Positions 3,212 to 64,000 of a DNA stretch of 64,000 bases are shown here, in pieces. Made by a program: the position numbers and the translations under genes. The notes beneath the pieces are model-generated. The model had not been told where the DNA came from. It saw nothing but the letters and a program-made list of their open reading frames with translations, and did not search any database. The first letter of the stretch is position 1. Each line of letters opens with the position of its first letter. The DNA is taken from the sequence record MN850584.1. One strand, given 5' to 3'. The DNA comes from Escherichia phage arall.

Positions 3212-3307
3212 ATGATCAAGAAAGAAAACAGCTTGACGGTTGGAACGATTAACGCTATCATTCTAGCCGTTCCATTTTGGGTTGTAGTAGCGGTTATTAT
3301 CTTTTAA
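3212..3307 (+). CDS. Small hydrophobic peptide (31 aa, MIKKENSLTVGTINAIILAVPFWVVVAVIIF)
   Basis: ATG with AAAGG upstream, single predicted TM helix. Confidence 0.3.
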   Translation: MIKKENSLTVGTINAIILAVPFWVVVAVIIF

Positions 3308-3315
3308 AAATATTC

Positions 3316-3371
3316 TTGACAACGTTTTTTAATCTGATAAGATGTATCACATAGGGCGGCAATAGTGCCGC
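3316..3371 (+). promoter_or_regulatory. Early promoter cassette: TTGACA-16-TAAGAT + 5' hairpin GCGGCA-ATAG-TGCCGC
   Basis: Conserved module CAC-ATAGGGCGG-hairpin then AACAGAAGAGA leader and ATG at 3396. Confidence 0.7.
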
Positions 3372-3395
3372 TCATAACAGAAGAGAGAAATAATC

Positions 3396-3668
3396 ATGGC
3401 ATCATATAGCGCATCAATGATCGTAATGGGTATCACTGGTAAACCTATGCGCGGTGGCGGATCTTTCGCTAACATCAATATTGATGGGCGTTTATCCCTG
3501 GATGCAGCGATCACCGTGGCACGGGAAACATTTAAAAAAGAATGTAATTTCAATAAACAAGATTATCTCGGTTTCGCTATTGAAAAAACCGCGCGCTTTG
3601 TTGATTATAAAAGCCCGAAAATGGTTGATACTACACTAAAAGCGCAAGATGTAGCATTTTTGCTTTAA
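3396..3668 (+). CDS. Hypothetical early protein (90 aa)
   Basis: ORF directly downstream of promoter-hairpin cassette with A/G-rich RBS. Confidence 0.6.
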   Translation: MASYSASMIVMGITGKPMRGGGSFANINIDGRLSLDAAITVARETFKKECNFNKQDYLGFAIEKTARFVDYKSPKMVDTTLKAQDVAFLL

Positions 3669-3671
3669 GGC

Positions 3672-3732
3672 TTGACACTGAAAAATAATTTGGTAATATA
3701 TACTACATAGGGCGGGGAAATGGTTTCCCGCC
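3672..3732 (+). promoter_or_regulatory. Early promoter cassette: TTGACA-16-TAATAT + hairpin GCGGGGAAA-TGG-TTTCCCGC
   Basis: Same module as 3316. Confidence 0.7.
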
Positions 3733-3754
3733 AAATCAAAGAAAGGGTAACACA

Positions 3755-4117
3755 ATGAGCAAGCAAATCAATACTATCATGTTAAACCTGGTATCTTTCC
3801 GCGACGACGTGAAAAATCTTCCACGTGATGCAGTGGATGCACGTATCGAAAGCTATCGCTCACAGATCGCAACGCTACCGCTAAAACGTGATCAACATGC
3901 CGCTAATATGATGCTTAATGCTATGCTTAAAAAGATGATTCAATGTGATCTTACCCTGGCTTATGAATATGCTGGCGATCTCTTTGTAACATATAGCAAG
4001 CCCGTACCAGGTATGAGCACAACCGAAGAATTGCATGCCTTAAATCTGCGACAAGATGCATGGGATAACATGCGCCGTGTTATGGTATGGGTAGAAAGCG
4101 GTAAAATTTACGAATAA
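3755..4117 (+). CDS. Hypothetical early protein (120 aa)
   Basis: ORF after cassette, RBS AAGGG. Confidence 0.6.
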   Translation: MSKQINTIMLNLVSFRDDVKNLPRDAVDARIESYRSQIATLPLKRDQHAANMMLNAMLKKMIQCDLTLAYEYAGDLFVTYSKPVPGMSTTEELHALNLRQDAWDNMRRVMVWVESGKIYE

Positions 4118-4123
4118 AAACGG

Positions 4124-4176
4124 TTGACATTGCACTAAAACCTGATAAGCTATCTTAAAGCGGGAATAGTTCCCGC
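4124..4176 (+). promoter_or_regulatory. Early promoter cassette: TTGACA-16-TAAGCT + hairpin GCGGGAA-TAG-TTCCCGC
   Basis: Module variant with compensatory stem. Confidence 0.65.
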
Positions 4177-4195
4177 TTACATAGGATAAAACTTT

Positions 4196-4342
4196 ATGAA
4201 ACAATATGTAATGAGTATTCACACCAAAAACGGCGCTACTGTTACGACTCCGGCACGGTTTGCACTTGTAAACCGTTGCAAGAGACTAAAACGAGAGCTA
4301 AAAAACAACCGTGCAACGGGCTTTAAACGCTGGGGAGGATAA
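4196..4342 (+). CDS. Small basic protein (48 aa)
   Basis: ATG 20 nt after hairpin; stop precedes GGAGG RBS of next ORF. Confidence 0.45.
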   Translation: MKQYVMSIHTKNGATVTTPARFALVNRCKRLKRELKNNRATGFKRWGG

Positions 4343-4344
4343 TC

Positions 4345-4605
4345 TTGTTTTTTCTAAAAGTTTTTGATAATGTGATCGCTTTTGAACATGCTGCAACGTT
4401 CAACCTGGCGAGATACGCTATCAGGTTTAAAGATAATGTTTATCCCCGTGCTGGTGGCGGTTACACTATCTTTAATCATCGTAACGCTCAATTAACGGAT
4501 ATAACGAATCCAGATCCTGGAGTGTATCGCATAGGTTGGCTACCGTCAAAAGACGCGGCAAGCATGTTTAAGGTATGTAAACTACTAACAGAAGAGGCAA
4601 ATTAG
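4345..4605 (+). CDS. Hypothetical protein (86 aa), probable TTG start
   Basis: GGAGGA 6 nt upstream of TTG at 4345; no in-frame ATG near RBS. Confidence 0.5.
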   Translation: MFFLKVFDNVIAFEHAATFNLARYAIRFKDNVYPRAGGGYTIFNHRNAQLTDITNPDPGVYRIGWLPSKDAASMFKVCKLLTEEAN

Positions 4606-4606
4606 C

Positions 4607-5161
4607 ATGGGGCGTGAGTATGTGATCCAGTCCTGGGTAAAGCATGACGCTAATGATCCGCGCATAATACCAGATGACATGATCGATCACATGGTAGGGT
4701 ATAGCGGGGAGCAGATAGGAAATCGAGCGGCAAAGAGCAACGGCAACACAAAGGCGCGATCCGTTCGCCCTGGTTGGCTGGCAAATGGTAACGCTGACAT
4801 TACAAGCGCCGCAGATCCAAGCGATGACGCTAAAAATAATCCCTTATACAGCATTGATCCGGCTTTTAAGGTGTTAGAAGAATATCCCGCTAAATTAGCC
4901 GCACTAGATAAAGCATACGAAGAAAAACGGGTGGCATGGACTGTATACAACACCGCTAAAATGGTGCTAGATGCAAAATTGATTAAAGCCCAGGAGAAGA
5001 TCAATAAACTTGTTACCATAGCGCAAGAGGAAGACCAGGACGACCAGGAGGAAGAGGAAGAAATCATGCCTATCCTGGAAGAGGAAGAGATCCAGCCATA
5101 CATGCCGACGGAAGAGGAAAAAAGACAAGCCTTAAAAAATTACGAAAATTGTATTGTGTAA
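4607..5161 (+). CDS. Hypothetical protein with strongly acidic C-terminal tail (EDQDDQEEEEEIMPILEEEEIQ)
   Basis: Start overlaps previous stop (TAGCATG); 184 aa. Confidence 0.6.
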   Translation: MGREYVIQSWVKHDANDPRIIPDDMIDHMVGYSGEQIGNRAAKSNGNTKARSVRPGWLANGNADITSAADPSDDAKNNPLYSIDPAFKVLEEYPAKLAALDKAYEEKRVAWTVYNTAKMVLDAKLIKAQEKINKLVTIAQEEDQDDQEEEEEIMPILEEEEIQPYMPTEEEKRQALKNYENCIV

Positions 5162-5164
5162 GGC

Positions 5165-5220
5165 TTGACATATGCAAACAAGCCCCGTAATATGTACCAC
5201 ATAAAGCGGGGCAACGCCCC
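5165..5220 (+). promoter_or_regulatory. Early promoter cassette: TTGACA-17-TAATAT + hairpin GGGGC-AAC-GCCCC
   Basis: Module variant. Confidence 0.6.
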
Positions 5221-5242
5221 ATAAGGTGAAATAAAAAATCAC

Positions 5243-5270
5243 TTGACACCTGAAATCAGTAAGCTATAAT
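5243..5270 (+). promoter_or_regulatory. Sigma70 consensus promoter TTGACA-16-TATAAT (no hairpin)
   Basis: Near-perfect hexamers upstream of 5308. Confidence 0.7.
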
Positions 5271-5307
5271 GCTTATATAAATTAAAGCGTTACTAAGGAA
5301 TAAAATC

Positions 5308-5673
5308 ATGGCTAAAAATATCAATGTTTCTGCTTATGCTACCCTGGCTAACACTGCTAAAATTGAACTATCCAGCATTGAAGCGGTACATATTAGCGCC
5401 CGTCGCTGGTTTCAAAAGTCTTATGGTAATACTTATTTCTCTTTGATGGTTGACGTTGAGATCGGCGGTAAATTGGTCGAAGTGGTTAACGTTCCGTTTC
5501 AATATGGTTATGGTGATCATTTTGATACCGTCGCCCTGGAAGAGTTTAGCAAGGTTATCAACCTGGAAGGTAAAGACTTTTCAAATTATGCTTACCTTTC
5601 CCGTTTTTGCCGTGACAATGGGATCGCTGTATACAGTCATGCAAGCGATGTTAAACGTAAAAAAGATTTATAA
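5308..5673 (+). CDS. Hypothetical early protein (121 aa)
   Basis: RBS AAGGAATAAAATC-ATG; downstream of tandem promoters. Confidence 0.6.
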   Translation: MAKNINVSAYATLANTAKIELSSIEAVHISARRWFQKSYGNTYFSLMVDVEIGGKLVEVVNVPFQYGYGDHFDTVALEEFSKVINLEGKDFSNYAYLSRFCRDNGIAVYSHASDVKRKKDL

Positions 5674-5679
5674 AAAGCA

Positions 5680-5737
5680 TTGACAGCACGAATAAAAAGC
5701 ATATAATACTTATATCGAGAGCGGGAATAGTTCCCGC
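5680..5737 (+). promoter_or_regulatory. Early promoter cassette: TTGACA-16-TATAAT + hairpin GCGGGAA-TAG-TTCCCGC
   Basis: Module. Confidence 0.7.
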
Positions 5738-5761
5738 CTCACTGAAAAAGAGATTAACATC

Positions 5762-6001
5762 ATGGCTAAATCTAAAATGTACAACGGTCACAAAAATAAA
5801 ACTCATTGGAATGTAAGCCTTTGGATCAACAACGATGAAGGTTTTTATAATCTTGCGCGTGAATTTATCGCAGCTAACACCAATAAGAATGACGCAGCGC
5901 GTGATATGATGTTATTTCTTGAAAGTATGGATCAAGATAAAACGCCAGACGGATTCAAGTTCAGTAAAACCGCGATCCGTGCCGCTATGGTTGGAATGTA
6001 A
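5762..6001 (+). CDS. Hypothetical early protein (79 aa)
   Basis: ORF after cassette. Confidence 0.6.
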   Translation: MAKSKMYNGHKNKTHWNVSLWINNDEGFYNLAREFIAANTNKNDAARDMMLFLESMDQDKTPDGFKFSKTAIRAAMVGM

Positions 6002-6096
6002 AGGAGACATAAAAATGAAACATCGTTCGACCTATCTCACAAAACGTTTTAGCTTAGATCATAAATTGGGCTACTACGGAAGAAATAGAAAATAAT

Positions 6097-6155
6097 TTGA
6101 CAACGTTTTAAATTAGTGTAAGATATATCACATAAGGCGGGAAATGGTTTCCCGC
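6097..6155 (+). promoter_or_regulatory. Early promoter cassette: TTGACA-16-TAAGAT + hairpin GCGGGAAA-TGG-TTTCCCGC
   Basis: Module. Confidence 0.7.
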
Positions 6156-6178
6156 CAAATCAAAGAAAGGTTATAATT

Positions 6179-6406
6179 ATGGCTATCGTTATTGTTCGCG
6201 TATCCGGTACGGTTGGAAGCTCCCAGGTAGTAGCAGTTATCACAGAGAAGAAAGGGGATGATCTTCACTCTTCCTTGAATAGCTGGGCGGTCGCTAATTT
6301 TGGTCAGTGGTCGAGCGTCGAGTATATCGAATCCTACCAGGTGCCAACGATTAGCCTGACCGATCTCAACGTTGATCGTCTGTTATGCCTGGATGAATTA
6401 ATCTGA
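6179..6406 (+). CDS. Hypothetical early protein (75 aa)
   Basis: ORF after cassette. Confidence 0.6.
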   Translation: MAIVIVRVSGTVGSSQVVAVITEKKGDDLHSSLNSWAVANFGQWSSVEYIESYQVPTISLTDLNVDRLLCLDELI

Positions 6407-6415
6407 AAAAGATTG

Positions 6416-6471
6416 TTGACACGGGAAAGAAAAAGAGTAAACTGTATTACATAGGGCGGCAATAGTGCCGC
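6416..6471 (+). promoter_or_regulatory. Early promoter cassette: TTGACA-16-TAAACT + hairpin GCGGCA-ATAG-TGCCGC
   Basis: Near-identical to cassette at 3316. Confidence 0.7.
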
Positions 6472-6496
6472 TCATAACAGAAGAGAGATTATCACG

Positions 6497-6712
6497 ATGG
6501 CTAATATCCGCACACTGTTAAAAAATGCAAAGCAAGTTTTATTTTCAGATGACGAATATTTTAATAAAGATATCACAGGCGTGAAAAATCTTAAAGATGT
6601 GAAAGATGTGATAGGTATTCGCGGATCTTTACGTAAAGGTGACACATACGGTAACAAGGTGCAATATAAGTTAGATCAGTTTTATGATTTTACTTTGACA
6701 ATTATTTCATAA
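6497..6712 (+). CDS. Hypothetical early protein (71 aa)
   Basis: ORF after cassette. Confidence 0.6.
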   Translation: MANIRTLLKNAKQVLFSDDEYFNKDITGVKNLKDVKDVIGIRGSLRKGDTYGNKVQYKLDQFYDFTLTIIS

Positions 6713-6718
6713 AACCGC

Positions 6719-6779
6719 TTGCAATCTTAATAAAATAAAGTAAACTAAATTCATCAAGGCGGTGGAATAGCCCACCGCC
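6719..6779 (+). promoter_or_regulatory. Early promoter cassette: TTGCAA-16-TAAACT + hairpin GGCGGTGG-AATAGC-CCACCGCC
   Basis: Module with different stem sequence (covariation). Confidence 0.6.
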
Positions 6780-6803
6780 TAACAAAGAGAAGAGGAAAAT
6801 ATC

Positions 6804-6974
6804 ATGATCACTTTCGCCACCCGTGAAGCCGCTCGCAACGTTGCACGTAAAGTTAACGCCGCCAACCTGGGCGCTACGCTTAAAGCCCCGGTGAAAGATG
6901 AATCAGGTAAATGGATCTTCCCTGGTCTGCGTCACGCTGATAAGCTGGGAACGTTAACGCTAAAAAATAAATAA
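6804..6974 (+). CDS. Small protein (56 aa, MITFATREAARNVARKVNAAN...)
   Basis: ATG 25 nt after hairpin with AGAGGAAAAT RBS; below ORF-track size cut-off. Confidence 0.5.
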   Translation: MITFATREAARNVARKVNAANLGATLKAPVKDESGKWIFPGLRHADKLGTLTLKNK

Positions 6975-6981
6975 GATCCGC

Positions 6982-7039
6982 TTGACAGTAGCATCATTTA
7001 TAAGTAAAGTAACAACAACGGCGGGAAATGGTTTCCCGC
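6982..7039 (+). promoter_or_regulatory. Early promoter cassette: TTGACA-17-TAAAGT + hairpin GCGGGAAA-TGG-TTTCCCGC
   Basis: Module. Confidence 0.7.
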
Positions 7040-7060
7040 CATCAATAAAGAGATAAAATC

Positions 7061-7420
7061 ATGAAATCAGTAAAAGCAATTAAAACCTACATTGTGTCGG
7101 CTATTTCTTTTGAAGGTACTACAACAGAAAAAGAAAAGATCACCGAACTGATGCGCCGTTTTAACTCTGAATACTGGTATCCCGATAATCAAAAACGTTA
7201 CAATTATAACGTGATCAAGGCGATAGCCTCATGGTTACAAGGTTTACCGTCAGACATTAACATCGCCTTTGATTATAACGAGATTGATCATTTATTAATT
7301 GAATGGAAGTACATAAAAGAAACAAGCAAAGAAACAACCGTTACCCGTGAGCGGGAAAATTATTGGTTATATATTGCAAGCATGATCGTAATCCTGGCAA
7401 AACAGCATAACGTGGCGTAA
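7061..7420 (+). CDS. Hypothetical early protein (119 aa)
   Basis: ORF after cassette. Confidence 0.6.
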   Translation: MKSVKAIKTYIVSAISFEGTTTEKEKITELMRRFNSEYWYPDNQKRYNYNVIKAIASWLQGLPSDINIAFDYNEIDHLLIEWKYIKETSKETTVTRERENYWLYIASMIVILAKQHNVA

Positions 7421-7435
7421 TTAAGAGGAAGAAAC

Positions 7436-7573
7436 ATGAACGCATCACAGCAGATCGAAAAATTCAACCGCAGCAAGGCGCGTAAAGATTGGAACGAAGA
7501 GATCACCAAAAAAGGCGACAAGCGGAACAAAACAAAGAGAGATCGCAGCACAAAAAGATACTGGAACGAATAA
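7436..7573 (+). CDS. Small lysine/arginine-rich protein (45 aa)
   Basis: AAGAGGAAGAAAC-ATG; ends just before terminator. Confidence 0.45.
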   Translation: MNASQQIEKFNRSKARKDWNEEITKKGDKRNKTKRDRSTKRYWNE

Positions 7574-7580
7574 CAAAAAA

Positions 7581-7603
7581 GGGCGCAATAAGCGCCCTTT
7601 TAG
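7581..7603 (+). terminator. Rho-independent terminator (GGGCGC-AATAA-GCGCCC + TTTT)
   Basis: GC stem + T-run. Confidence 0.7.
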
Positions 7604-7692
7604 CTTATATAGAGGCTTGTTACCCATAGGCAATGGTAACGCCAGGATAAGCCTATAAATCAACGTTAAACGGCTTTACAGGAGCTTTAAAA

Positions 7693-7875
7693 ATGAAATT
7701 AGACGAAATAAGCAAGGCACTAGCCCAGGGGCAAAGGTTATGCGCCCGATATCGTGATCAATATGGCTTCATAACTAGCGGCGTGATCCTGGGGATTGAA
7801 GGCAATAAGATTTTTATTGACACGTTGAAAAACGTTGTATATAGTGACAATATAATCTCAATAAAACATATATGA
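7693..7875 (+). CDS. Hypothetical protein (60 aa)
   Basis: ORF with RBS AGGAG. Confidence 0.5.
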   Translation: MKLDEISKALAQGQRLCARYRDQYGFITSGVILGIEGNKIFIDTLKNVVYSDNIISIKHI

Positions 7876-7883
7876 GGCAAGAA

Positions 7884-8285
7884 ATGAAAAAATTATTGAT
7901 CGCTGGTTTAATCTCTTTTGGCATGGTTGGAACATCTAGCGCGGCGATATCCTCCACAGTAGCAGAATTAAGCGCCGTTGATGCAATGGAAAACGTCATG
8001 CTTATTAATAATGCGATCCCCGATGAAATCATGGAGGATTCACACATGATCGCTTATGGTGCTGTTACACAACTAACGGCAAAAATAGATAAATCTATTG
8101 TTAACGGCTTAAATGAAGATGTGCCATGTGAAATTATTACCAGTGTGCTGACTACTCAAAATTTTACGCCGTGGTTAAAAAGTATTCAAAAAGTACACAG
8201 TACAGCCGCAGATCGTAGCAATGAAAAACTAGTGTCAGCACTTGCAACGTATACCCTAGCAAAATGCACCGAGATAAAAGATTGA
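7884..8285 (+). CDS. Secreted/periplasmic hypothetical protein (signal peptide MKKLLIAGLISFGMVGTSSA)
   Basis: Start moved to MKKLL (RBS GAGGCAAGAA); classic n-h-c signal peptide with AxA. Confidence 0.55.
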   Translation: MKKLLIAGLISFGMVGTSSAAISSTVAELSAVDAMENVMLINNAIPDEIMEDSHMIAYGAVTQLTAKIDKSIVNGLNEDVPCEIITSVLTTQNFTPWLKSIQKVHSTAADRSNEKLVSALATYTLAKCTEIKD

Positions 8286-8311
8286 CAACATAGAAAGCAC
8301 GTTATAAGATA
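8283..8311 (+). promoter_or_regulatory. Sigma70-like promoter TTGACA-17-TAAGAT
   Basis: Hexamers upstream of 8333. Confidence 0.5.
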
Positions 8312-8332
8312 CACACAACAAAGGAGAACTAC

Positions 8333-8635
8333 ATGAACGGCATAGCTAAAACGTTTTTTCTTTTTTCTGGTGTAAATGATCCATCAATAAAAGTCGATAG
8401 TGTAAAAGAAAACAATACTATCACCGCTAAATTGTTTCAAGATGAAACAAATAACGTGCTAATCATTAATCTTAAAGAAATAACGAAAGGTTATTATACT
8501 ATTGCTTACCATGCGATCTATCATGCGGGTACTAGTGAGGAAGTGCAAACAAGCAACAACGAAAGCGCGGCGCTACCTGGTGATCTGGTGCTGGGCGTTA
8601 TCAGTTTAATTGTCAATGATTTTTTTAAGGAGTAA
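8333..8635 (+). CDS. Hypothetical protein (100 aa), possible N-terminal signal sequence
   Basis: RBS AAGGAGAACTAC-ATG. Confidence 0.55.
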   Translation: MNGIAKTFFLFSGVNDPSIKVDSVKENNTITAKLFQDETNNVLIINLKEITKGYYTIAYHAIYHAGTSEEVQTSNNESAALPGDLVLGVISLIVNDFFKE

Positions 8636-8639
8636 AACC

Positions 8640-8735
8640 ATGCCCTATTTACATTTATTTTTCGGTATCTTATTGACAGGATCTTTTTTCTTCTGTATGC
8701 TTGTTTCTATTGTAAACCACGTTTTAAGACATTAA
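8640..8735 (+). CDS. Small membrane peptide (31 aa)
   Basis: RBS AAGGAG 8 nt upstream; one hydrophobic helix. Confidence 0.35.
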   Translation: MPYLHLFFGILLTGSFFFCMLVSIVNHVLRH

Positions 8736-8744
8736 GGAAACAGC

Positions 8745-8864
8745 ATGAAAATTATTCCCGTACAGTATAGCGTAATAAATCCAGCATATGAGGAAGGAAG
8801 GAAAACAAGCATGGCTTTATGTTGTATTGCTACTATAGCCATGTTGTTATATATTGTGTTTTAA
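8745..8864 (+). CDS. Small membrane peptide (39 aa)
   Basis: RBS AAGGAAACAGC-ATG; C-terminal hydrophobic segment. Confidence 0.35.
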   Translation: MKIIPVQYSVINPAYEEGRKTSMALCCIATIAMLLYIVF

Positions 8865-8893
8865 TAGGTTTTATAGTTGTACGCTTTAAAGGC

Positions 8894-8921
8894 TTGACAA
8901 TTTTTTGTTATGCTTTAAAAT
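8894..8921 (+). promoter_or_regulatory. Sigma70-like promoter TTGACA-16-TAAAAT
   Basis: Hexamers upstream of 8965. Confidence 0.5.
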
Positions 8922-8964
8922 ATATCTTGAAAACGGCAAAGGCCGCAAACAAAAGGGTAAAATT

Positions 8965-9288
8965 ATGAAATCTGTGATCGGTGTTTATTTGGATAACTCT
9001 GATTTTTTCTATCATCGCGCTCGTTTCCTTGATGCGATTGAAATGATAGAATCAGGCTTTAAAGAGTATCGCCTTGCACATGATGACCTAGAAGCATTAC
9101 AGGGCAATAGTGTTTTTACATTGCAAGCGAAAGCACTATGCAAAAGCCGGATCGACATTGCGAGCAAAAAGATAGAACGCGGCATGTCCTGGTTACGCAC
9201 CGCAGAAATCAACATGGGGCAATGGTACGGCGAAAACTTAGAAAATAAACGCACTTTTGTAAATGTAGAAAATCTTAAAGATTATTGA
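8965..9288 (+). CDS. Hypothetical protein (107 aa)
   Basis: Start set at MKSVIG with RBS AAAGGGTAAAATT. Confidence 0.55.
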   Translation: MKSVIGVYLDNSDFFYHRARFLDAIEMIESGFKEYRLAHDDLEALQGNSVFTLQAKALCKSRIDIASKKIERGMSWLRTAEINMGQWYGENLENKRTFVNVENLKDY

Positions 9289-9350
9289 TTGACAGCACAC
9301 CTAACAGATAGTATATTGTATCTCATAGAGCGGGGAAATGGTTTCCCCGC
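9289..9350 (+). promoter_or_regulatory. Early promoter cassette: TTGACA-17-TATATT + hairpin GCGGGGAAA-TGG-TTTCCCCGC
   Basis: Module. Confidence 0.7.
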
Positions 9351-9370
9351 CTTAACAGAAGAGATAAGCT

Positions 9371-9655
9371 ATGAAGATCACAAAAGCACTTTCCAACTAT
9401 GCAGCACGTCGCGGATTATGTTTAACCGTTGAAAATTTAGGGAAAGAAGATTTTTTGTGCTTTTGGGAGCTTGAGAATGATAATGAGTGGATCTTCTCTT
9501 ATTCTATCTGCGAAGATCAAAACGGTTGTTTATTAACCTGGCGCGGTAATATCTATCTACCGGAAGAAATCAAAGAAGAATTACCAGGCACGATCATGAC
9601 TGAGAAACAGCTTAAGGAAGTGATCAATTTTGTAGGGCAAAACATTAAAAAATAA
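9371..9655 (+). CDS. Hypothetical early protein (94 aa)
   Basis: ORF after cassette. Confidence 0.6.
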   Translation: MKITKALSNYAARRGLCLTVENLGKEDFLCFWELENDNEWIFSYSICEDQNGCLLTWRGNIYLPEEIKEELPGTIMTEKQLKEVINFVGQNIKK

Positions 9656-9656
9656 T

Positions 9657-9716
9657 TTGACACTAGGCAAACAACGTAGTAAAGTTTATCACATAGGGCG
9701 GGAAATGGTTTCCCGC
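9657..9716 (+). promoter_or_regulatory. Early promoter cassette: TTGACA-17-TAAAGT + hairpin GCGGGAAA-TGG-TTTCCCGC
   Basis: Module. Confidence 0.7.
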
Positions 9717-9739
9717 TCACAACAGAAGAGAAACAAATC

Positions 9740-9910
9740 ATGATCCCAACTATGTTTTATGTATCGCGCAAAGGTCACAATATTTTTTGGTCTGAAGATT
9801 TAAATGAAGCCATGACGTTTGCCCGTGATCGTGTTGCTATCGGTGGCGTTAACATTACTGTAACCGATGAAAACGGCATTGAATACTATAACGGCGACGA
9901 TGAAGAGTAA
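9740..9910 (+). CDS. Small protein (56 aa)
   Basis: ATG 24 nt after hairpin, RBS AGAGAAACAAATC. Confidence 0.5.
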   Translation: MIPTMFYVSRKGHNIFWSEDLNEAMTFARDRVAIGGVNITVTDENGIEYYNGDDEE

Positions 9911-9918
9911 TTAATGAG

Positions 9919-9939
9919 GCGGGGGGAGTATTCCCCGCC
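9919..9939 (+). promoter_or_regulatory. Conserved 5'-leader hairpin (GGCGGGG-GGAGTAT-TCCCCGCC) without clear -35
   Basis: Same flanking context (…GTCAATAAAGAGG…ATG) as other cassettes. Confidence 0.45.
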
Positions 9940-9958
9940 GTCAATAAAGAGGTAAATC

Positions 9959-10228
9959 ATGAAAATATCATTGGACGTTGCAATCAAGGCCATCGAATCC
10001 GGTTACACCCTGGTAAAAGATGATAAGGCTAAAATAGTGCATCATGTTAACAAGGAAACAGGCGAAAGCATGATCACATATAAAGCCGCCTACTTTCTCC
10101 AATCAGTAGCAGATCCGCGCGTACAACGCCAGGTTACAGCGGCTATTGCTAAAAAATTATGTGCTTTACAGGGCACAAGTTTTAACGAGATCGCCCCGTG
10201 TTTTGACTGGTCGAGCTTGAAAAAATAG
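9959..10228 (+). CDS. Hypothetical early protein (89 aa)
   Basis: ORF after hairpin. Confidence 0.6.
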   Translation: MKISLDVAIKAIESGYTLVKDDKAKIVHHVNKETGESMITYKAAYFLQSVADPRVQRQVTAAIAKKLCALQGTSFNEIAPCFDWSSLKK

Positions 10229-10229
10229 T

Positions 10230-10290
10230 TTGATAATATGCTGTTATCTGGTAAAGTGTACGACATAGGGCGAGGCAATAAGGCAACGCC
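10230..10290 (+). promoter_or_regulatory. Early promoter cassette: TTGATA-16-TAAAGT + hairpin GGGCG-N14-CGCCC
   Basis: Module variant. Confidence 0.5.
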
Positions 10291-10310
10291 CATTAATGAG
10301 GGGTAGAATC

Positions 10311-10415
10311 ATGTTAGAGAAAATTTTCACGGTTGTAATAGTGGGCCTGGCGTTATCGGTTGGATTGGTTGCAACTATGGCTAACATGATCCTATCTTCC
10401 CACGGTATCGGCTAA
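10311..10415 (+). CDS. Small membrane peptide (34 aa)
   Basis: RBS GAGGGGTAGAATC-ATG; hydrophobic. Confidence 0.35.
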   Translation: MLEKIFTVVIVGLALSVGLVATMANMILSSHGIG

Positions 10416-10429
10416 AAGAGAAACACAAC

Positions 10430-10594
10430 ATGAAAACAGAAATCATTATTGAAATCATCAACGGTTATAAAGAAGCCTTTATTTTTGCCGAACCAGCGAC
10501 GGATAACAATGGGGAATATATTGAGAATCTAGACGATTATGATTTTTCTCCTAGCGCCCTGAAATATACACTACTAACACCGCCAACCGTTTAA
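10430..10594 (+). CDS. Small acidic protein (54 aa)
   Basis: RBS AAGAGAAACACAAC-ATG. Confidence 0.4.
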   Translation: MKTEIIIEIINGYKEAFIFAEPATDNNGEYIENLDDYDFSPSALKYTLLTPPTV

Positions 10595-10672
10595 CTGATG
10601 CAGCTAAATTAATGCCATCGGTGCATGCTTACATTGGTGAAGATAATTTGATTTATATTGAATAAAAAGTAT

Positions 10673-10729
10673 TGACACCGATCCCCAATATGTTATTATT
10701 TACCACGTAAGCGGGAAATGGTTTCCCGC
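10673..10729 (+). promoter_or_regulatory. Early promoter cassette: TTGACA-16-TATTAT + hairpin GCGGGAAA-TGG-TTTCCCGC
   Basis: Module. Confidence 0.7.
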
Positions 10730-10753
10730 TAGGTAATCAAAAAGGTAAATACT

Positions 10754-29396: not shown

Positions 29397-29424
29397 ACAA
29401 AAAACCCGCCGAAGCGGGTTTATA
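29397..29424 (-). terminator. Terminator hairpin AACCCGC-CGAA-GCGGGTT with T-run on minus strand, followed by TTGACA
   Basis: Variant of 111-133 family; internal terminator/promoter junction in minus block. Confidence 0.6.
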
Positions 29425-46313: not shown

Positions 46314-46724
46314 TTAGAATTCAGAATCATCATCTCGTGATGGATCATGTTCATTTCCGAAGTCTTCCATTTTGATATGAGAGCTACCCCAACCTGTAAA
46401 ATCTTCTTCTCCAAAGTGCAAAATATCTACACCTTGATAGATTCGCTTATATTTATAGTCTTGTCGAACTGGGAAAGTATACAATGTAGTATTTGCAAAC
46501 ACCACACGTCGATTGTTGTTACTACGAATATTAACACCACGTTCTACTGTATAATGTCCATCGGTAGACATACCAAGCATTACTAATGCTGCTCGCAATG
46601 TAGTGTTATGATACTCGTGAGGAATTTTTCCTCCGTGTTTTTTAGCCATTTCTTTCCAGATCGGTGTAGCCTTAATGGTAGACATACTTACGGTCGCCCA
46701 AACGGTTGTATTAATTAGTGACAT
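46314..46724 (-). CDS. Hypothetical protein (136 aa)
   Basis: ORF. Confidence 0.5.
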   Translation of the reverse strand: MSLINTTVWATVSMSTIKATPIWKEMAKKHGGKIPHEYHNTTLRAALVMLGMSTDGHYTVERGVNIRSNNNRRVVFANTTLYTFPVRQDYKYKRIYQGVDILHFGEEDFTGWGSSHIKMEDFGNEHDPSRDDDSEF

Positions 46725-46822
46725 AAATTCTCCTTCTCTCTTTTTAAGGAGAGCTACGCTCTCCTAACGTTAGCCTATACTACACGAATCTCAATTAAAA
46801 GTCAACTATAATTTTAAGTTGA

Positions 46823-58938: not shown

Positions 58939-59313
58939 TTAATAGTTAACACGTTTAATTTCAACACCATAGGATGCAATAAAATTTTCCTTAGCTAACA
59001 TATATTTACCAGCAGCAGAAGGATTTGATGTATGAACATAGATAGTTTTAAGAGCATCCCATTCACCTGCGTACAACATACATTCTACGTCTAAGAACGC
59101 ATGATATCCTTCTTGATCTTCTCCAAGATCATTATCGAAGTGTATCTCTGAAATATTATTGAAATTATCTTCATCTGAAACAAAAGATGACCAATCCCCA
59201 AAAGATTTTAACCAAATGGCATCCTCATAACCATAATCTTTAGGATCTCTTAAATCGTCTAACCAAAGAATTTTAGCCACTATCAACCCCCTTCCTGTTT
59301 CTCTTCTTTCCAA
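58939..59313 (-). CDS. Hypothetical protein (124 aa)
   Basis: ORF. Confidence 0.5.
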   Translation of the reverse strand: MERRETGRGLIVAKILWLDDLRDPKDYGYEDAIWLKSFGDWSSFVSDEDNFNNISEIHFDNDLGEDQEGYHAFLDVECMLYAGEWDALKTIYVHTSNPSAAGKYMLAKENFIASYGVEIKRVNY

Positions 59314-61315: not shown

Positions 61316-62209
61316 ATGAAAGTTAGTATTCTACATGGTGTTGACTGTTATGTTACTGATGTAGACGTTAAAGTCTTTACATTCTCTGGTGGAGAACAAC
61401 ATGTTCAACTAGATACGAATCTATCAGGTTTCAATCATGCTACAGACAGAATCTTACTCTCTTTAGAAGTAAGATCTGCTAAAGACTTGATGACTTTGGT
61501 TATGACTAAGAATGCATTGGACAATATGCTATATCATAAACCATATTGTGTTGATTTGCTCATGTTGTATGTGCCATATGCACGACAAGACAGAGTGTGT
61601 GAACCTGGGGAAGCATTCGGAGTTAAAGCATTTGCTTCTATAATTAATTCATTAAATTTCTCACGTGTTATCGTTGCTGATCCACATAGTGATGTTACTC
61701 CAGCGGTGTTTGACAGACTCTGTGTAATACCTCAAGAAGAGATTGCTTACGAAACTTTAAAGTGGAAGTTACGTATGGAGAATTTTGCTCTTGTTAGTCC
61801 TGATGGTGGTGCTCTTAAGAAAATATTTAAATTATCTAAGAAAATGTCTTTAGATGTGTTCTGTGCAGAGAAGGTTAGAGATACTGCAACAGGTGCTATT
61901 GTTCGTACAGACATTTCTGTACAGGATTTCAATAAGCGTAACCTGATGATCGTAGATGATATCTGTGACGGCGGTAGAACTTTTATTGAATTGGCTAAAG
62001 TGCTACGTGCTCGTAACGCAGGTAAGATTGAGTTATATGTTACACACGGTATCTTTTCTAAAGGTCTTAAAGAGTTAAGTGAGCACTTTGACTGCATTCA
62101 TTCTCTTAATGTGTGGGAAGATAACATCCAAGAAGATTCCGGTGTTCTTGTTAAGAATCAGTCAGATTTGCAACAACAAATTGTATCTCCATACGTGTGG
62201 AATTTTTAA
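61316..62209 (+). CDS. Ribose-phosphate pyrophosphokinase (Prs)-family protein; candidate ADP-ribose pyrophosphokinase of NARP1-type pathway
   Basis: VPYARQDRV, ADPHS, VSPDGGA, MIVDDICDGGRTFIEL...YVTHGIFSKG parallel recalled Prs; adjacent to NAMPT-like gene. Confidence 0.8.
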   Translation: MKVSILHGVDCYVTDVDVKVFTFSGGEQHVQLDTNLSGFNHATDRILLSLEVRSAKDLMTLVMTKNALDNMLYHKPYCVDLLMLYVPYARQDRVCEPGEAFGVKAFASIINSLNFSRVIVADPHSDVTPAVFDRLCVIPQEEIAYETLKWKLRMENFALVSPDGGALKKIFKLSKKMSLDVFCAEKVRDTATGAIVRTDISVQDFNKRNLMIVDDICDGGRTFIELAKVLRARNAGKIELYVTHGIFSKGLKELSEHFDCIHSLNVWEDNIQEDSGVLVKNQSDLQQQIVSPYVWNF

Positions 62210-62219
62210 ATAATAAGTG

Positions 62220-62254
62220 TTGACAATAGGGAGTATGCTTAGTAAGATACTCCC
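62220..62254 (+). promoter_or_regulatory. Sigma70-like promoter TTGACA-17-TAAGAT overlapped by palindrome GGGAGTAT-N10-ATACTCCC
   Basis: 8-bp inverted repeat spans spacer and -10. Confidence 0.55.
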
Positions 62255-62280
62255 ACACTAACAAACAAGGAGACATAACT

Positions 62281-64000
62281 ATGAATATTTTTGCACCTTT
62301 TGCTACTGATTGGTATAAACCTGGTCACAAGCAGATGTACAACCAAAATACAAAACTCATTTTCTCTAATTTAACTCCTCGTAATGATAAAAACTTTGCA
62401 CACTATGCAGATCGTGAAGCACGTGGTGTAATTGTTTTAGGTATTCGTCGAGCAGTTACTGATGCTCTTGTAACTATGTGGGATAGCTTCTTTAAAATGT
62501 CTCGTAGTGCAGCAGTAAATAAGTTTTATCGTATGTCTAAAAATGCATTAGGTGCTTCTTCTCCTTCTGCTGAATGTTGGGGAGAATTGCACGATTTAGG
62601 TTATCTTCCGCTGGAAGTTCGATCTCTGCCAGAAGGTGTTTTGTGTCCTATTGGTGTTCCTGTGTTTACTGTGCATAATACTTTAGAAAAATTCTTTTGG
62701 TTAACTAACTATGTGGAAACACTATTGTCAGATGAAACTTGGAAGACAATGACTAATGCTACAGCAGCTTTTCAGTATAAGCGTATTGCTATGGCATATG
62801 CGATGGCAACGTGTGATAATATTGATCACGTTAACTTCCAGTGTCATGATTTTAGCCTACGTGGTTTAAGTAATATTGAAGATGGTTATAAGAGTGGTAT
62901 CGCTCATTTGGCATCGTTCACAGGCACAGATAATATTCTGGCTATTGAAACTGTGCATGATTATTATGGTATTGATTATGATCAGTTTGTTGCAGGTTCT
63001 ATTCCGGCAACAGAACATTCAGTAGCAACGACTAACATTGGAGCTATTGTTGAAGATCTGAAGAAACATTTCCCACATCTTAAAGATGATGTTGATGGGC
63101 TTCGTTATGTAGCAGAGAAAGAGTTTCTTCGCCGCTATATTGAAGAAATTGTTCCAGAAGGTTTTTGTTCATATGTAGCAGATTCTTATGATTACTGGGC
63201 TGTCTTGACTCGCATTCTGGTAGAATTGAAAGAGTCCATTATGTCACGAAATGGTCGTCTTGTTATTCGTCCAGATTCAGGAGATCCGGTTAAAGTTGTT
63301 GCAGGATACAATGTTGAATCTTTTGCTAACTATGAAGACCTTTTAAATAATGGTATTGCTACAGCCACTGAAGTAGTTCATTTGGCTGATGTTAATAAGT
63401 ATTACAATGTTCTTCAGGATTGCAGTGTTGCTGATTGTATTGATGAAACTTATGAGATTCCTTATTGTGAAGCAGTAGGTTCTATTCAAATCCTTTGGGA
63501 AGTGTTTGGTGGTACTATCAACCGAAAAGGCTACAAGGTTCTTGATCAGCACATCGGTATGATTTATGGTGATTCTATTACTGTTGAACGAGAACACGAG
63601 ATCTTACGCCGACTGAAGAAGAAAGGTTTTGCAGCTTCCAATATTGTATTTGGTGTTGGTAGTTATACTTATCAGTTCAATACACGAGATACTTTTGGTT
63701 TTGCTGTTAAAGCAACAGGTAGTATCATCGGTGAACACGAAATTTTGGTAAGTAAGGAGCCTAAAACTGATCCTGGTAAACGCTCTGCAAAAGGTTTTAT
63801 TAAGGTTGTTAAGGATACAAATGGTAAACTTTCTCTTGTGGATAATCTTTCTTTTAAAGATATTCAAGATGAAGACAATGAGTTAAAAGTTATCTTCAGG
63901 GATGGTACGGTTATTACACCACAAGTAGAAGGACGTGATGAAACATTTACTGATATCCGCAACCGTGTTGATGTAGAGGTTCTTCGTACTATGGGAACCA
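62281..64000 (+). CDS. Nicotinamide phosphoribosyltransferase (NAMPT/NadV)-family protein, 3'-truncated by window; candidate nicotinamide ADP-ribose transferase
   Basis: TDWYKPGH (TDSYK), CHDFSLRG, GTDN, VIRPDSGDP, GMIYGDSIT, FGVGS. Confidence 0.8.
   Translation, partial: MNIFAPFATDWYKPGHKQMYNQNTKLIFSNLTPRNDKNFAHYADREARGVIVLGIRRAVTDALVTMWDSFFKMSRSAAVNKFYRMSKNALGASSPSAECWGELHDLGYLPLEVRSLPEGVLCPIGVPVFTVHNTLEKFFWLTNYVETLLSDETWKTMTNATAAFQYKRIAMAYAMATCDNIDHVNFQCHDFSLRGLSNIEDGYKSGIAHLASFTGTDNILAIETVHDYYGIDYDQFVAGSIPATEHSVATTNIGAIVEDLKKHFPHLKDDVDGLRYVAEKEFLRRYIEEIVPEGFCSYVADSYDYWAVLTRILVELKESIMSRNGRLVIRPDSGDPVKVVAGYNVESFANYEDLLNNGIATATEVVHLADVNKYYNVLQDCSVADCIDETYEIPYCEAVGSIQILWEVFGGTINRKGYKVLDQHIGMIYGDSITVEREHEILRRLKKKGFAASNIVFGVGSYTYQFNTRDTFGFAVKATGSIIGEHEILVSKEPKTDPGKRSAKGFIKVVKDTNGKLSLVDNLSFKDIQDEDNELKVIFRDGTVITPQVEGRDETFTDIRNRVDVEVLRTMGT

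What the first reader, a model, noticed from the sequence alone, without database searches (positions are those of the whole stretch)
62220..62254. Operator-like palindrome over the promoter of the NAMPT-like gene
The inverted repeat GGGAGTAT-N10-ATACTCCC spans the spacer and -10 of a TTGACA-17-TAAGAT promoter. This is a typical repressor-operator geometry and suggests regulated expression of the NAD+ salvage gene.
Basis: seen in the sequence. Interest (0 to 1): 0.4.

Follow-up and report, generated by a model that had tools for sequence, protein, structure and literature searches.

The report
Promoter-embedded stem-loop before phage NAMPT gene
The palindrome is real, but comparison with related phages shows that its base-pairing is conserved and its sequence is not, so it is most likely a stem-loop built into an early promoter (a regulatory cassette already known from T4-like phages) and not a repressor binding site.

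Summary
The window is a phi92-like coliphage (Justusliebigvirus). GGGAGTAT-N10-ATACTCCC (62229-62254) and TTGACA-17-TAAGAT (62220-62248) are exactly as described. They lie in the 71-nt gap between a PRPP-synthetase gene and the NAMPT gene.

An 8-bp inverted repeat alone is weak evidence: about a third of such repeats in the window are expected by chance. Comparison rescues it. Klebsiella relatives and Erwinia/Salmonella Kolesnikviruses carry a stem in the same register, with three compensatory double changes and G·T wobbles. Pseudomonas Pakpunaviruses and RB49-type phages carry unrelated stems over the same part of a TTGACA-17 promoter.

Pairing is conserved while arm sequence is not. All wobbles fit the sense strand. 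No second copy sits at any promoter in the genome. Two relatives have no promoter or repeat before NAMPT.

The anatomy matches "PeSL" promoter/stem-loop cassettes of T4-like phages: AT-rich stop region, σ70 promoter, stem-loop over the -10, Shine-Dalgarno, ATG. The window holds many other promoter/stem-loop composites.

Best reading: a constitutive early promoter for NAMPT overlaid on an RNA hairpin that forms only in transcripts arriving from the upstream gene, acting as attenuator or 3'-end stabiliser. The operator reading is not supported. Ordinary; a new member of a known kind.

The parts
61316..62209 (+). Upstream gene: PRPP synthetase-like (ribose-phosphate pyrophosphokinase), stop TAA 62207-62209
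   Evidence: ORF list; PF00156 and PF14572; annotated as ribose-phosphate pyrophosphokinase in relatives
62207..62219 (+). Stop codon of the upstream gene inside an AT-rich stretch (TAAATAATAAGTG) directly upstream of the -35
   Evidence: Sequence. The same TAATAAGTG-TTGAC junction is kept in Klebsiella phage KP13-26, where a different upstream gene precedes it
62220..62225 (+). -35 hexamer TTGACA
   Evidence: It is TTGACT in the Klebsiella relatives, TTGCAA in Kolesnikvirus and TTGATA in phage muut
62229..62254 (+). Stem-loop: arms GGGAGTAT (62229-62236) and ATACTCCC (62247-62254), plus an inner CTT/AAG helix (62238-62240 with 62244-62246), bulge G62237, loop AGT
   Evidence: RNA -12.9 kcal/mol, z -4.4; pairing conserved in register in two further lineages
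62243..62248 (+). -10 hexamer TAAGAT; its last two bases belong to the 3' arm
   Evidence: The same TAAGAT -10 recurs at other promoter-like sites in the window (3316, 6097, 8282)
62255..62255 (+). Predicted transcription start (A, 7 nt after the -10). The stem ends at -1, so transcripts from this promoter cannot contain the hairpin
   Evidence: Inference from standard sigma70 geometry; not measured
62267..62272 (+). Shine-Dalgarno AAGGAG, 8 nt before the ATG
   Evidence: Sequence; annotated as RBS in the phi92 record
62281..64000 (+). NAMPT (nicotinamide phosphoribosyltransferase) gene; runs off the window end
   Evidence: PF04095, E 2.1e-37; annotated as such in relatives

Best explanation
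This is a PeSL-type composite cassette with two superimposed functions. (1) A near-consensus sigma70 early promoter (TTGACA-17-TAAGAT) is read by host RNA polymerase. It starts NAMPT mRNA at about 62255, giving a 26-nt unstructured leader with a Shine-Dalgarno sequence. (2) A stem-loop whose 5' arm lies in the promoter spacer and whose 3' arm covers the end of the -10 and the discriminator. The stem ends at -1, so it can exist only in sense-strand RNA that enters from the upstream PRPP-synthetase gene, 19 nt after that gene's stop codon. There it most likely attenuates read-through or forms and protects the 3' end of the upstream mRNA, so that NAMPT expression is set mainly by its own promoter. 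Shown here: the anatomy, conservation of pairing, strand bias of the wobbles, and recurrence of promoter/stem-loop composites in this genome. Inferred: promoter activity, the start site, and the attenuator or stabiliser role (by analogy with PeSLs tested in RB49/phi1).
For: The anatomy matches the published PeSL description: stop codon in an AT-rich region, sigma70 boxes, a stem-loop 'most commonly between -35 and -10 or overlapping the -10', SD, ATG. In RB49/phi1 both promoter and terminator activity were shown with reporters.

Pairing is conserved in the same register relative to the promoter in Justusliebigvirus, the Klebsiella Stephanstirmvirinae and Kolesnikvirus. 91% of cells pair, against 49-64% in all slid registers. 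The covariation score is 0.417 against at most 0.175. Three of 8 pairs show compensatory double changes (GC>UA, UA>AU, UA>GC).

Pakpunaviruses and Krischviruses carry unrelated stems (GGCCCAGATTG/TAATCTGGGCC; GGGGGTA/TACCCCC) over the same spacer/-10/discriminator segment of TTGACA-17 promoters. All of these stems end 2 nt either side of the predicted start.

Six distinct G.T sites occur in these stems and no A.C site, so the structure fits the + strand only.

The Kolesnikvirus copy is followed by CUCUUUU, which is terminator-like.

In the window, 11 of 68 perfect inverted repeats fall in promoter neighbourhoods that cover 5.1% of the sequence (p 6e-4). Their stems lie upstream of -35, over -35, over -10, just after -10, or in the leader.

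The upstream neighbour of the cassette differs between relatives: PRS, a 67-aa ORF, or an HNH endonuclease. The nearest non-family BLAST hits to the cassette are RB49-type phages.
Against: There is no U-tract after the hairpin in the window (CCCACACUAAC), and the terminator scan does not call it, so efficient intrinsic termination is unlikely. No transcript-end data exist for this phage group.

Only about three independent lineages contribute in-register pairs. The measure 'pairs with a change on both sides' is not above shuffles (292 of 500).

Homology of the Kolesnikvirus (E 0.02), Krischvirus (E 0.2-2) and Pakpunavirus cassettes to this one is not established; they could be convergent.

Within Justusliebigvirus the region is nearly invariant. 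The one arm change seen (AMO3598, C>A at 62254) breaks the outer pair without compensation.

This cassette is a sequence singleton in its genome, unlike the repeated PeSL families.
Confidence: 0.55

Rival explanations
1. Operator: a dimeric phage or host repressor binds the dyad as double-stranded DNA, blocks the -10 and times NAMPT expression.
For: A dyad symmetry overlapping the spacer and -10 is the classical operator geometry. A repeat in this position is also found before NAMPT in the Klebsiella relatives and in Pakpunaviruses.
Against: Half-site sequences differ completely between lineages while pairing is kept. G.T wobbles make the half-sites asymmetric and fit one strand only. There is no further copy at any promoter in the ~147-kb genome: matches with up to 4 mismatches number 42 against 26-44 expected, and the single 2-mismatch copy spans an RBS/ATG. 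No DNA-binding Pfam domain was found in seven adjacent ORFs. A closely similar promoter and stem precedes an unrelated gene in Kolesnikvirus. Tr1 and 05F01 lack it before NAMPT. There is no host NadR-box-like site here (the consensus was recalled from memory).
Confidence: 0.1
2. DNA-level structure: the + strand hairpin, or a cruciform, forms in supercoiled or single-stranded DNA. It either modulates open-complex formation at this promoter or serves as a recombination hotspot for modular gene shuffling.
For: As single-stranded DNA the hairpin is also stable (-7.4 kcal/mol, z -4.6). PeSLs were proposed and shown to recombine with one another. Relatives differ by insertions directly upstream of the cassette. 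G.T is tolerated in DNA hairpins as well.
Against: An 8-bp stem with a 10-nt loop is unfavourable for cruciform extrusion (established knowledge). Both DNA strands fold equally well in the window, yet the wobble bias across lineages is one-sided. No partner copy for recombination exists in the genome.
Confidence: 0.12
3. Chance repeat with no function: the 3' arm is fixed by the -10 and a C-rich discriminator, and the spacer happens to complement it.
For: About 23 of the 68 perfect 8-bp inverted repeats in the window are expected by chance. With some 30 promoter-like sites, one overlap is unsurprising. TAAGATAC is a recurrent -10 context in this phage, and the otherwise similar promoter at 8282 has no stem.
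Against: The stem is maintained through compensatory changes in two other lineages in the same register, and 91% of cells pair against about 50% in shifted registers. Stems of 7-12 bp sit at the same place in Krischvirus E26 and Pakpunavirus promoters.
Confidence: 0.1

Closest known systems
PeSL (promoter-early stem-loop) cassettes of T4-like phages RB49/phi1, PST and nt-1 (Arbiol et al. 2010, PMC2839356; Comeau et al. 2014, PMC4122927)
   Same: An intergenic composite of about 70-100 bp: stop codon in an AT-rich stretch, near-consensus sigma70 -35/-10 with a 17-nt spacer, a stem-loop between the boxes or overlapping the -10, then SD and ATG. There are several positional subclasses within one genome. 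The cassettes are associated with small ORFs and with indels between close relatives. An RB49-type phage (E26) has TTGACA-17-TAAGAT-ACCCCCACAAACAAAC, against TTGACA-17-TAAGAT-ACTCCCACACTAACAAAC here.
   Different: The host phage belongs to Stephanstirmvirinae, not the T4-like Straboviridae. This copy is a sequence singleton that sits before a conserved metabolic gene, not an ORFan. Its stem is mixed-sequence rather than the G(n)-loop-C(n) type. Promoter, terminator and recombination activities are untested.
Rho-independent (intrinsic) terminators placed back to back with promoters
   Same: A hairpin shortly after a stop codon (19 nt) in the sense transcript, 11 bp in total at -12.9 kcal/mol. 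The Kolesnikvirus counterpart is followed by CUCUUUU.
   Different: There is no U-tract in the window, the Klebsiella copies or the Pakpunavirus copies, and the consensus scan does not call it. The hairpin is inside the promoter, not upstream of it; compare the canonical terminator-then-promoter arrangement at 29397-29421.
Classical repressor operators overlapping promoters (lac O1, lambda OR/OL, LexA boxes)
   Same: Dyad symmetry covering the spacer and -10.
   Different: Operators keep their half-site sequence among relatives that share the regulator, and they recur at co-regulated promoters. Here the sequence drifts while pairing is kept, and no second site and no candidate regulator were found.
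Hairpin promoters of phage N4 virion RNA polymerase (recalled from memory, not tested)
   Same: A promoter whose recognition region can form a short DNA hairpin.
   Different: N4 promoters lack sigma70 boxes and need a phage-encoded virion RNA polymerase. This site has canonical sigma70 hexamers and a 10-nt loop. No search for a virion RNA polymerase was made here.

Membership tests
PeSL promoter/stem-loop cassette | Intergenic, with the stop codon of the upstream gene in an AT-rich region just upstream of the -35 | tested here: met
   TAA 62207-62209 lies within TTTTTAAATAATAAGTG, directly before TTGACA
PeSL promoter/stem-loop cassette | Near-consensus sigma70 -35 and -10 with a spacer of about 17 nt | tested here: met
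   TTGACA-17-TAAGAT, 10 of 12 matches; boxes and spacing are kept in three lineages
PeSL promoter/stem-loop cassette | Stable stem-loop in one of the described positions (between the boxes or overlapping the -10 being the commonest) | tested here: met
   The stem spans 62229-62254, from the spacer to the -10 and discriminator; -12.9 kcal/mol, z -4.4. Positions are as described in PMC2839356
PeSL promoter/stem-loop cassette | Shine-Dalgarno and start codon of the downstream gene at the 3' end | tested here: met
   AAGGAG 62267-62272, ATG 62281
PeSL promoter/stem-loop cassette | Many copies per genome, concentrated among small ORFs in plastic regions | tested here: inconclusive
   The window has several promoter + stem-loop composites at 3-12 kb that share the leader hairpin GCGGGAAATGGTTTCCCGC, and others elsewhere. 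The 62220 cassette itself is unique in sequence
PeSL promoter/stem-loop cassette | Demonstrated promoter activity and terminator/attenuator activity of the stem-loop | not testable with these tools
   This needs reporter assays or transcript-end mapping. No transcriptome of this phage group was found
PeSL promoter/stem-loop cassette | Cassette marks indel or recombination junctions between close relatives | tested here: inconclusive
   The gene directly upstream of the cassette is PRS (window), a 67-aa ORF (KP13-26, phi1_175008, KP2025) or an HNH endonuclease (FKP3). This is consistent but is not proof of cassette-mediated recombination
Repressor operator | Half-site sequence conserved among relatives | tested here: not met
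   GGGAGTAT, GGAGAGGAT and AGGTGGGTA occupy the same register, and pairing is kept by compensatory changes
Repressor operator | Recurrence at other promoters, or a cognate DNA-binding protein encoded nearby | tested here: not met
   No other promoter-associated copy in the ~147-kb genome; no DNA-binding Pfam domain in seven neighbouring ORFs. Absence of evidence only
Intrinsic terminator | GC-rich hairpin immediately followed by a U-tract | tested here: not met
   The hairpin is present, but it is followed by CACACUAAC, and the scan does not call it. The Kolesnikvirus counterpart has CUCUUUU

The most novel reading that the evidence does not exclude
The hairpin buried in the spacer and -10 is a conserved, structure-specific control device of phage NAMPT modules. 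It is shared by unrelated phage groups (E. coli and Klebsiella Stephanstirmvirinae, Pseudomonas Pakpunavirus). It might couple firing of the NAMPT promoter to transcription arriving from the PRPP-synthetase gene, or be recognised as a hairpin by a host or phage factor. That would be a regulatory principle beyond a simple terminator/promoter overlap.
Probability: 0.12. Interest if true: 0.5.

Novelty: new member of a known kind. Interest (0 to 1): 0.25.

Why it matters
There are three modest points. First, it corrects a tempting misreading: a palindrome over a -10 in a lytic phage need not be an operator. Here it is a conserved stem-loop, so NAMPT, which other work places in the NARP2 NAD+ reconstitution anti-defence pathway, is probably expressed from a plain early promoter and not from a sensed, repressible one. 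Second, it extends PeSL-type promoter/stem-loop cassettes, described only in T4-like phages, to phi92-like phages, with look-alikes in Kolesnikvirus and Pakpunavirus. This bears on how lytic phages insulate neighbouring transcription units and shuffle genes. Third, it gives a small, well-defined element for testing what U-tract-less hairpins inside promoters actually do.

Tried and rejected
- Rfam: no family matched at gathering score in the whole window, and only noise around the site.
- Host NadR-box search (consensus recalled from memory): nothing in the intergenic region and no enrichment, 110 against 90 +/- 10.
- Global folding energy of 89-nt promoter segments against random window segments: only weakly lower (p 0.03) and confounded by AT content, so not used as evidence.
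- Variation within Justusliebigvirus: too little to test covariation. Thirty-three records are identical over 81 nt, and there is one uncompensated arm change.
- Homology of the small ORFs upstream of the cassette in the Klebsiella phages and the Pakpunaviruses: none detectable, E 2.7.
- Experimental TSS/TTS tables for Pseudomonas phage PAK_P3 (ONT-cappable-seq, PMC10914365): the supplements are not held, so no transcript ends could be read.
- Transcriptome literature for Stephanstirmvirinae: none relevant.
- The 'hypothetical tRNA' annotated inside NAMPT in the phi92 record: ARAGORN finds nothing there.
- N4-type hairpin promoter: set aside because canonical sigma70 boxes are present (from knowledge, not tested).
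- The only near-copy of the palindrome in the genome (alia 46700-46726) spans an SD/ATG on the minus strand and is not at a promoter.

Full report
**What the window is.** The locus is 99.4% identical to Escherichia phage alia and 97.7-99.4% identical to the listed phi92-like phages (40 of 55 records with near-full coverage; genus Justusliebigvirus, Stephanstirmvirinae). The ORF at 61316-62209 carries phosphoribosyltransferase and PRPP-synthetase-associated domains. The ORF that starts at ATG 62281 and runs off the window is a NAPRTase/NAMPT-family protein (PF04095, E 2e-37). According to papers found here, NAMPT belongs to the phage NARP2 NAD+ reconstitution pathway, which starts from PRPP.

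**Check of the observation.**
- -35 TTGACA at 62220-62225, then a 17-nt spacer;
- -10 TAAGAT at 62243-62248;
- arms GGGAGTAT at 62229-62236 and ATACTCCC at 62247-62254.

The element lies in the 71-nt gap between the two genes and starts 19 nt after the TAA of the upstream gene. AAGGAG at 62267-62272 lies 8 nt before the ATG. Folding shows that the repeat continues inward. After a bulged G, CTT pairs with AAG around a 3-nt loop, giving 11 pairs in all. The RNA energy is -12.9 kcal/mol (z -4.4), and none of 200 shuffles folds as well.

**Is it more than chance?** Taken alone, it is not. The window contains 68 perfect inverted repeats of at least 8 bp with spacers of 3-20 nt, against 23 +/- 4 in simulated sequence. 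So about a third of such repeats are expected by chance. Promoter-consensus matches in 56-64 kb are as frequent as in shuffles (31 vs 29.9). With roughly 30 promoter-like sites in the window, one chance overlap would not be surprising. The decision has to come from comparison with other phages.

**Close relatives.**
- Thirty-three phi92-like records are identical over 62205-62285, and the rest differ at 1-4 positions.
- In the variants I fetched, changes fall upstream of the -35, in the spacer before the arm, in the loop, in the -35 itself (muut, TTGATA) and in the leader.
- Only one change hits an arm: AMO3598, C>A at 62254, which opens the outermost pair.

This is too little variation to test anything.

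**More distant relatives.**
- Klebsiella Stephanstirmvirinae (KP13-26, phi1_175008, KP2025, FKP3; NAMPT 74-81% identical) keep the cassette: TAATAAGTG-TTGACT-17-TAATCT, then an A/C-rich leader, SD and ATG. Their stem is GGAGAGGAT/ATCTTCTCC.
- Erwinia/Salmonella Kolesnikviruses (Ounavirinae: M7, SE5, phiEa21-4) have a 46-nt match to the window cassette (E 0.02; reciprocal search 2e-3 to 8e-3). It lies between a primase/helicase gene and an unrelated gene of unknown function. It reads TTGCAA-17-TAAGAT with stem (A/G)GGTGGGTA/TACTCACCT, followed by CUCUUUU or CUCGUUU.

All of these share the 17-nt spacer, so an ungapped alignment anchored on the promoter puts the three stems in one register.

**Covariation in that register**.
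- 91% of cells form standard pairs, against 49-64% when the 3' partner is slid by 1-3 columns.
- The covariation score is 0.417, against at most 0.175 in slid registers, and it exceeds all 500 shuffles.
- Three of the 8 pairs carry compensatory double changes: G-C to U-A, U-A to A-U, and U-A to G-C.
- Two pairs change on one side only, to G.U.

Two caveats apply. Only three independent lineages contribute. The count of pairs with double changes is not itself above the shuffles (292 of 500).

**The same geometry with unrelated stems.**
- A search for NAMPT relatives found Pseudomonas Pakpunaviruses (PAK_P1, K5, PaGz-1, PAK_P2/MAG1, EM; NAMPT about 45% identical). Directly upstream of NAMPT they have TTGACA-17-TAATCT or TAGTCT, with an 11-12-bp stem (A)GGCCCAGATTG/TA(A/G)TCTGGGC(C/T)(T). 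It again runs from spacer position 3-4 through the -10 into the discriminator, one position out of register with the window stem. Their own variants are G.U-type or stem-extending changes.
- The next-best BLAST hits to the window cassette are RB49-type Krischviruses (E26, PHB13), at E 0.2-2. They read TTGACA-17-TAAGAT-ACCCCCACAAACAAAC. E26 has a 7-bp stem GGGGGTA/TACCCCC enclosing the -10; in PHB13 only 4 pairs remain.

In all five groups the stem ends within 2 nt of the predicted start site.

**Strand of the structure.** Across these stems I count six distinct G.T sites and no A.C site. The few broken cells are T/C or G/A. G.T on the + strand would be A.C on the - strand. So whatever is selected is a + strand hairpin, meaning sense RNA (or + strand single-stranded DNA), and not a symmetric double-stranded protein site. 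If G.T and A.C were equally likely, six of six would have p of about 0.02. This figure is rough, because some positions are fixed by the -10.

**Tests of the operator reading.** I assembled a near-complete genome from phage alia plus the window.
- The dyad with up to 4 mismatches and spacers of 6-14 nt occurs 42 times, against 26-44 in simulations.
- The only close copy (2 mismatches) spans the SD and ATG of a glycosyltransferase gene on the other strand and is not at a promoter.
- Seven small ORFs next to the locus show no DNA-binding domain.
- Citrobacter phage Tr1 and Klebsiella phage 05F01, both Stephanstirmvirinae, have NAMPT abutting an upstream small gene, with neither promoter nor repeat.
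- The Kolesnikvirus cassette serves a different gene.
- No NadR-box-like site is present (the consensus was recalled from memory).

None of this proves the absence of a binder. But every prediction specific to an operator fails, while the structure-specific predictions hold.

**What it resembles.** Arbiol et al. (PMC2839356) and Comeau et al. (PMC4122927) described PeSLs (promoter-early stem-loops) in T4-like phages. A PeSL has the upstream stop codon in an AT-rich stretch, near-perfect sigma70 boxes 17 nt apart, and a stem-loop. The stem-loop is most often between the boxes or overlapping the -10, and in other cases lies upstream of the -35, over the -35 or just after the -10. An SD and ATG follow. 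For representative elements they showed promoter activity, and terminator activity comparable to rrnB T1. They proposed that the stem-loop stops transcription coming from upstream, and they showed recombination between cassettes.

The 62207-62283 segment has this anatomy item for item. The phage also has the rest of the repertoire:
- a stem between the boxes (promoter-like site at 2670 on the - strand);
- a stem over the -35 (27230 on the - strand);
- a terminator-like stem with a T-run just upstream of the -35 (29397 on the - strand);
- a stem immediately after the -10 (49003 on the - strand);
- a family on the + strand at 3-12 kb in which TTGACA-16/17-TAnnnT is followed by the conserved leader hairpin GCGGGAAATGGTTTCCCGC.

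Eleven of the 68 perfect inverted repeats fall in promoter neighbourhoods that make up 5.1% of the window (p 6e-4). The gene directly upstream of the NAMPT cassette also differs among relatives: PRS, a 67-aa ORF, or an HNH endonuclease. This fits the indel-junction behaviour of PeSLs but does not prove it.

**Most likely mechanism.** Host sigma70 RNA polymerase uses TTGACA/TAAGAT and starts at about A62255. This is inferred from geometry. The resulting NAMPT mRNA has a short unstructured leader and cannot contain the hairpin, whose 3' arm ends at -1. The hairpin therefore matters only for RNA that starts upstream, for example at promoter-like sites in the divergent region at 60.9-61.3 kb, and that crosses the PRS stop codon. 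In that RNA the hairpin forms 19 nt after the stop. It would attenuate read-through, or define and protect the 3' end of the PRS message. This is inferred by analogy with tested PeSLs and from the + strand bias.

The weak point is the missing U-tract. The window copy is followed by CACACUAAC and is not called by the terminator scan. Strong intrinsic termination is therefore doubtful, and a stabiliser or pause role is as plausible as termination. I put this composite reading at about 0.55. The alternatives are a DNA-level hairpin role (promoter kinetics or recombination) at about 0.12, a true operator at about 0.10, and no function at about 0.10.

**Novelty and verdict.** The promoter and gene identity are supported. 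The operator inference is not. The element is best filed as a PeSL-like promoter/stem-loop cassette in a phage group where such cassettes have not, to my knowledge, been described. It has look-alikes before NAMPT in Pakpunaviruses and before another gene in Kolesnikviruses. That makes it a new member of a known kind, of modest interest. The most novel reading still open is that the promoter-embedded hairpin is a conserved, structure-specific control of NAMPT modules across phage families. Transcript-end mapping and arm/compensatory mutants would settle it.

Noticed in passing
window 3300-10750, + strand (e.g. 3672-3760, 6097-6156, 6982-7040, 9289-9350, 9657-9716, 10672-10730): A family of repeated cassettes among small ORFs. 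Each has TTGACA-16/17-TAnnnT, followed about 10 nt later by a conserved leader hairpin (CATAGG)GCGGGAAATGGTTTCCCGC(C). They look like PeSL-type cassettes with the stem-loop downstream of the -10. There is no Rfam match.
   Followed up: partly
window 58942-59313, - strand: A 124-aa ORF matches PF20274 cREC_REC (cyclic-phosphate processing receiver domain), E 3.9e-13. This is an unusual domain for a lytic coliphage early region.
   Followed up: no
GenBank MG065639, MG065645, MG065656, MG065689 ('Campylobacter phage' A150, A145, C3, A110a): These records are about 98% identical to E. coli phi92-like phages across the 2.7-kb locus, and 100% identical over 62205-62285. The stated Campylobacter host is probably wrong, or these are contaminant phages.
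   Followed up: no
window ~62873-63023 (phi92 record FR775895.2 49736-49886): The phi92 record annotates a 151-nt 'hypothetical tRNA' inside the NAMPT coding sequence. ARAGORN finds no tRNA there, so the annotation is probably spurious.
   Followed up: yes
L024 (phage alia) 46700-46726, - strand: This is the only near-copy of the palindrome in the genome: GGGAGTATgatatttcacATAACTCCC. It spans the Shine-Dalgarno and ATG of glycosyltransferase gp047, so it might mask that start site in RNA. One such hit is within chance expectation.
   Followed up: partly
L021 (Klebsiella phage FKP3) 30-605; L016 (KP13-26) 1772-1975: Between the PRS gene and the NAMPT cassette, FKP3 carries an HNH endonuclease gene, and KP13-26, phi1_175008 and KP2025 carry a 67-aa ORF. 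Justusliebigvirus has nothing there. The indels abut the cassette's AT-rich edge.
   Followed up: partly
L033, L035-L038, L093-L096 (Pseudomonas Pakpunavirus), about 60 nt upstream of NAMPT: TTGACA-17-TAATCT or TAGTCT, with an 11-12-bp stem GGCCCAGATTG/TA(A/G)TCTGGGCC covering the spacer, the -10 and the discriminator. It lies directly before NAMPT in a phage group with only about 45% NAMPT identity. It is the same geometry as in the window, and homology is unresolved.
   Followed up: partly
L013 (phage muut), position equivalent to window 62224: Natural -35 variant TTGATA, plus a loop change (T>C at the position equivalent to 62239), in an otherwise identical cassette. It could serve as a natural promoter-down allele for comparison.
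   Followed up: no
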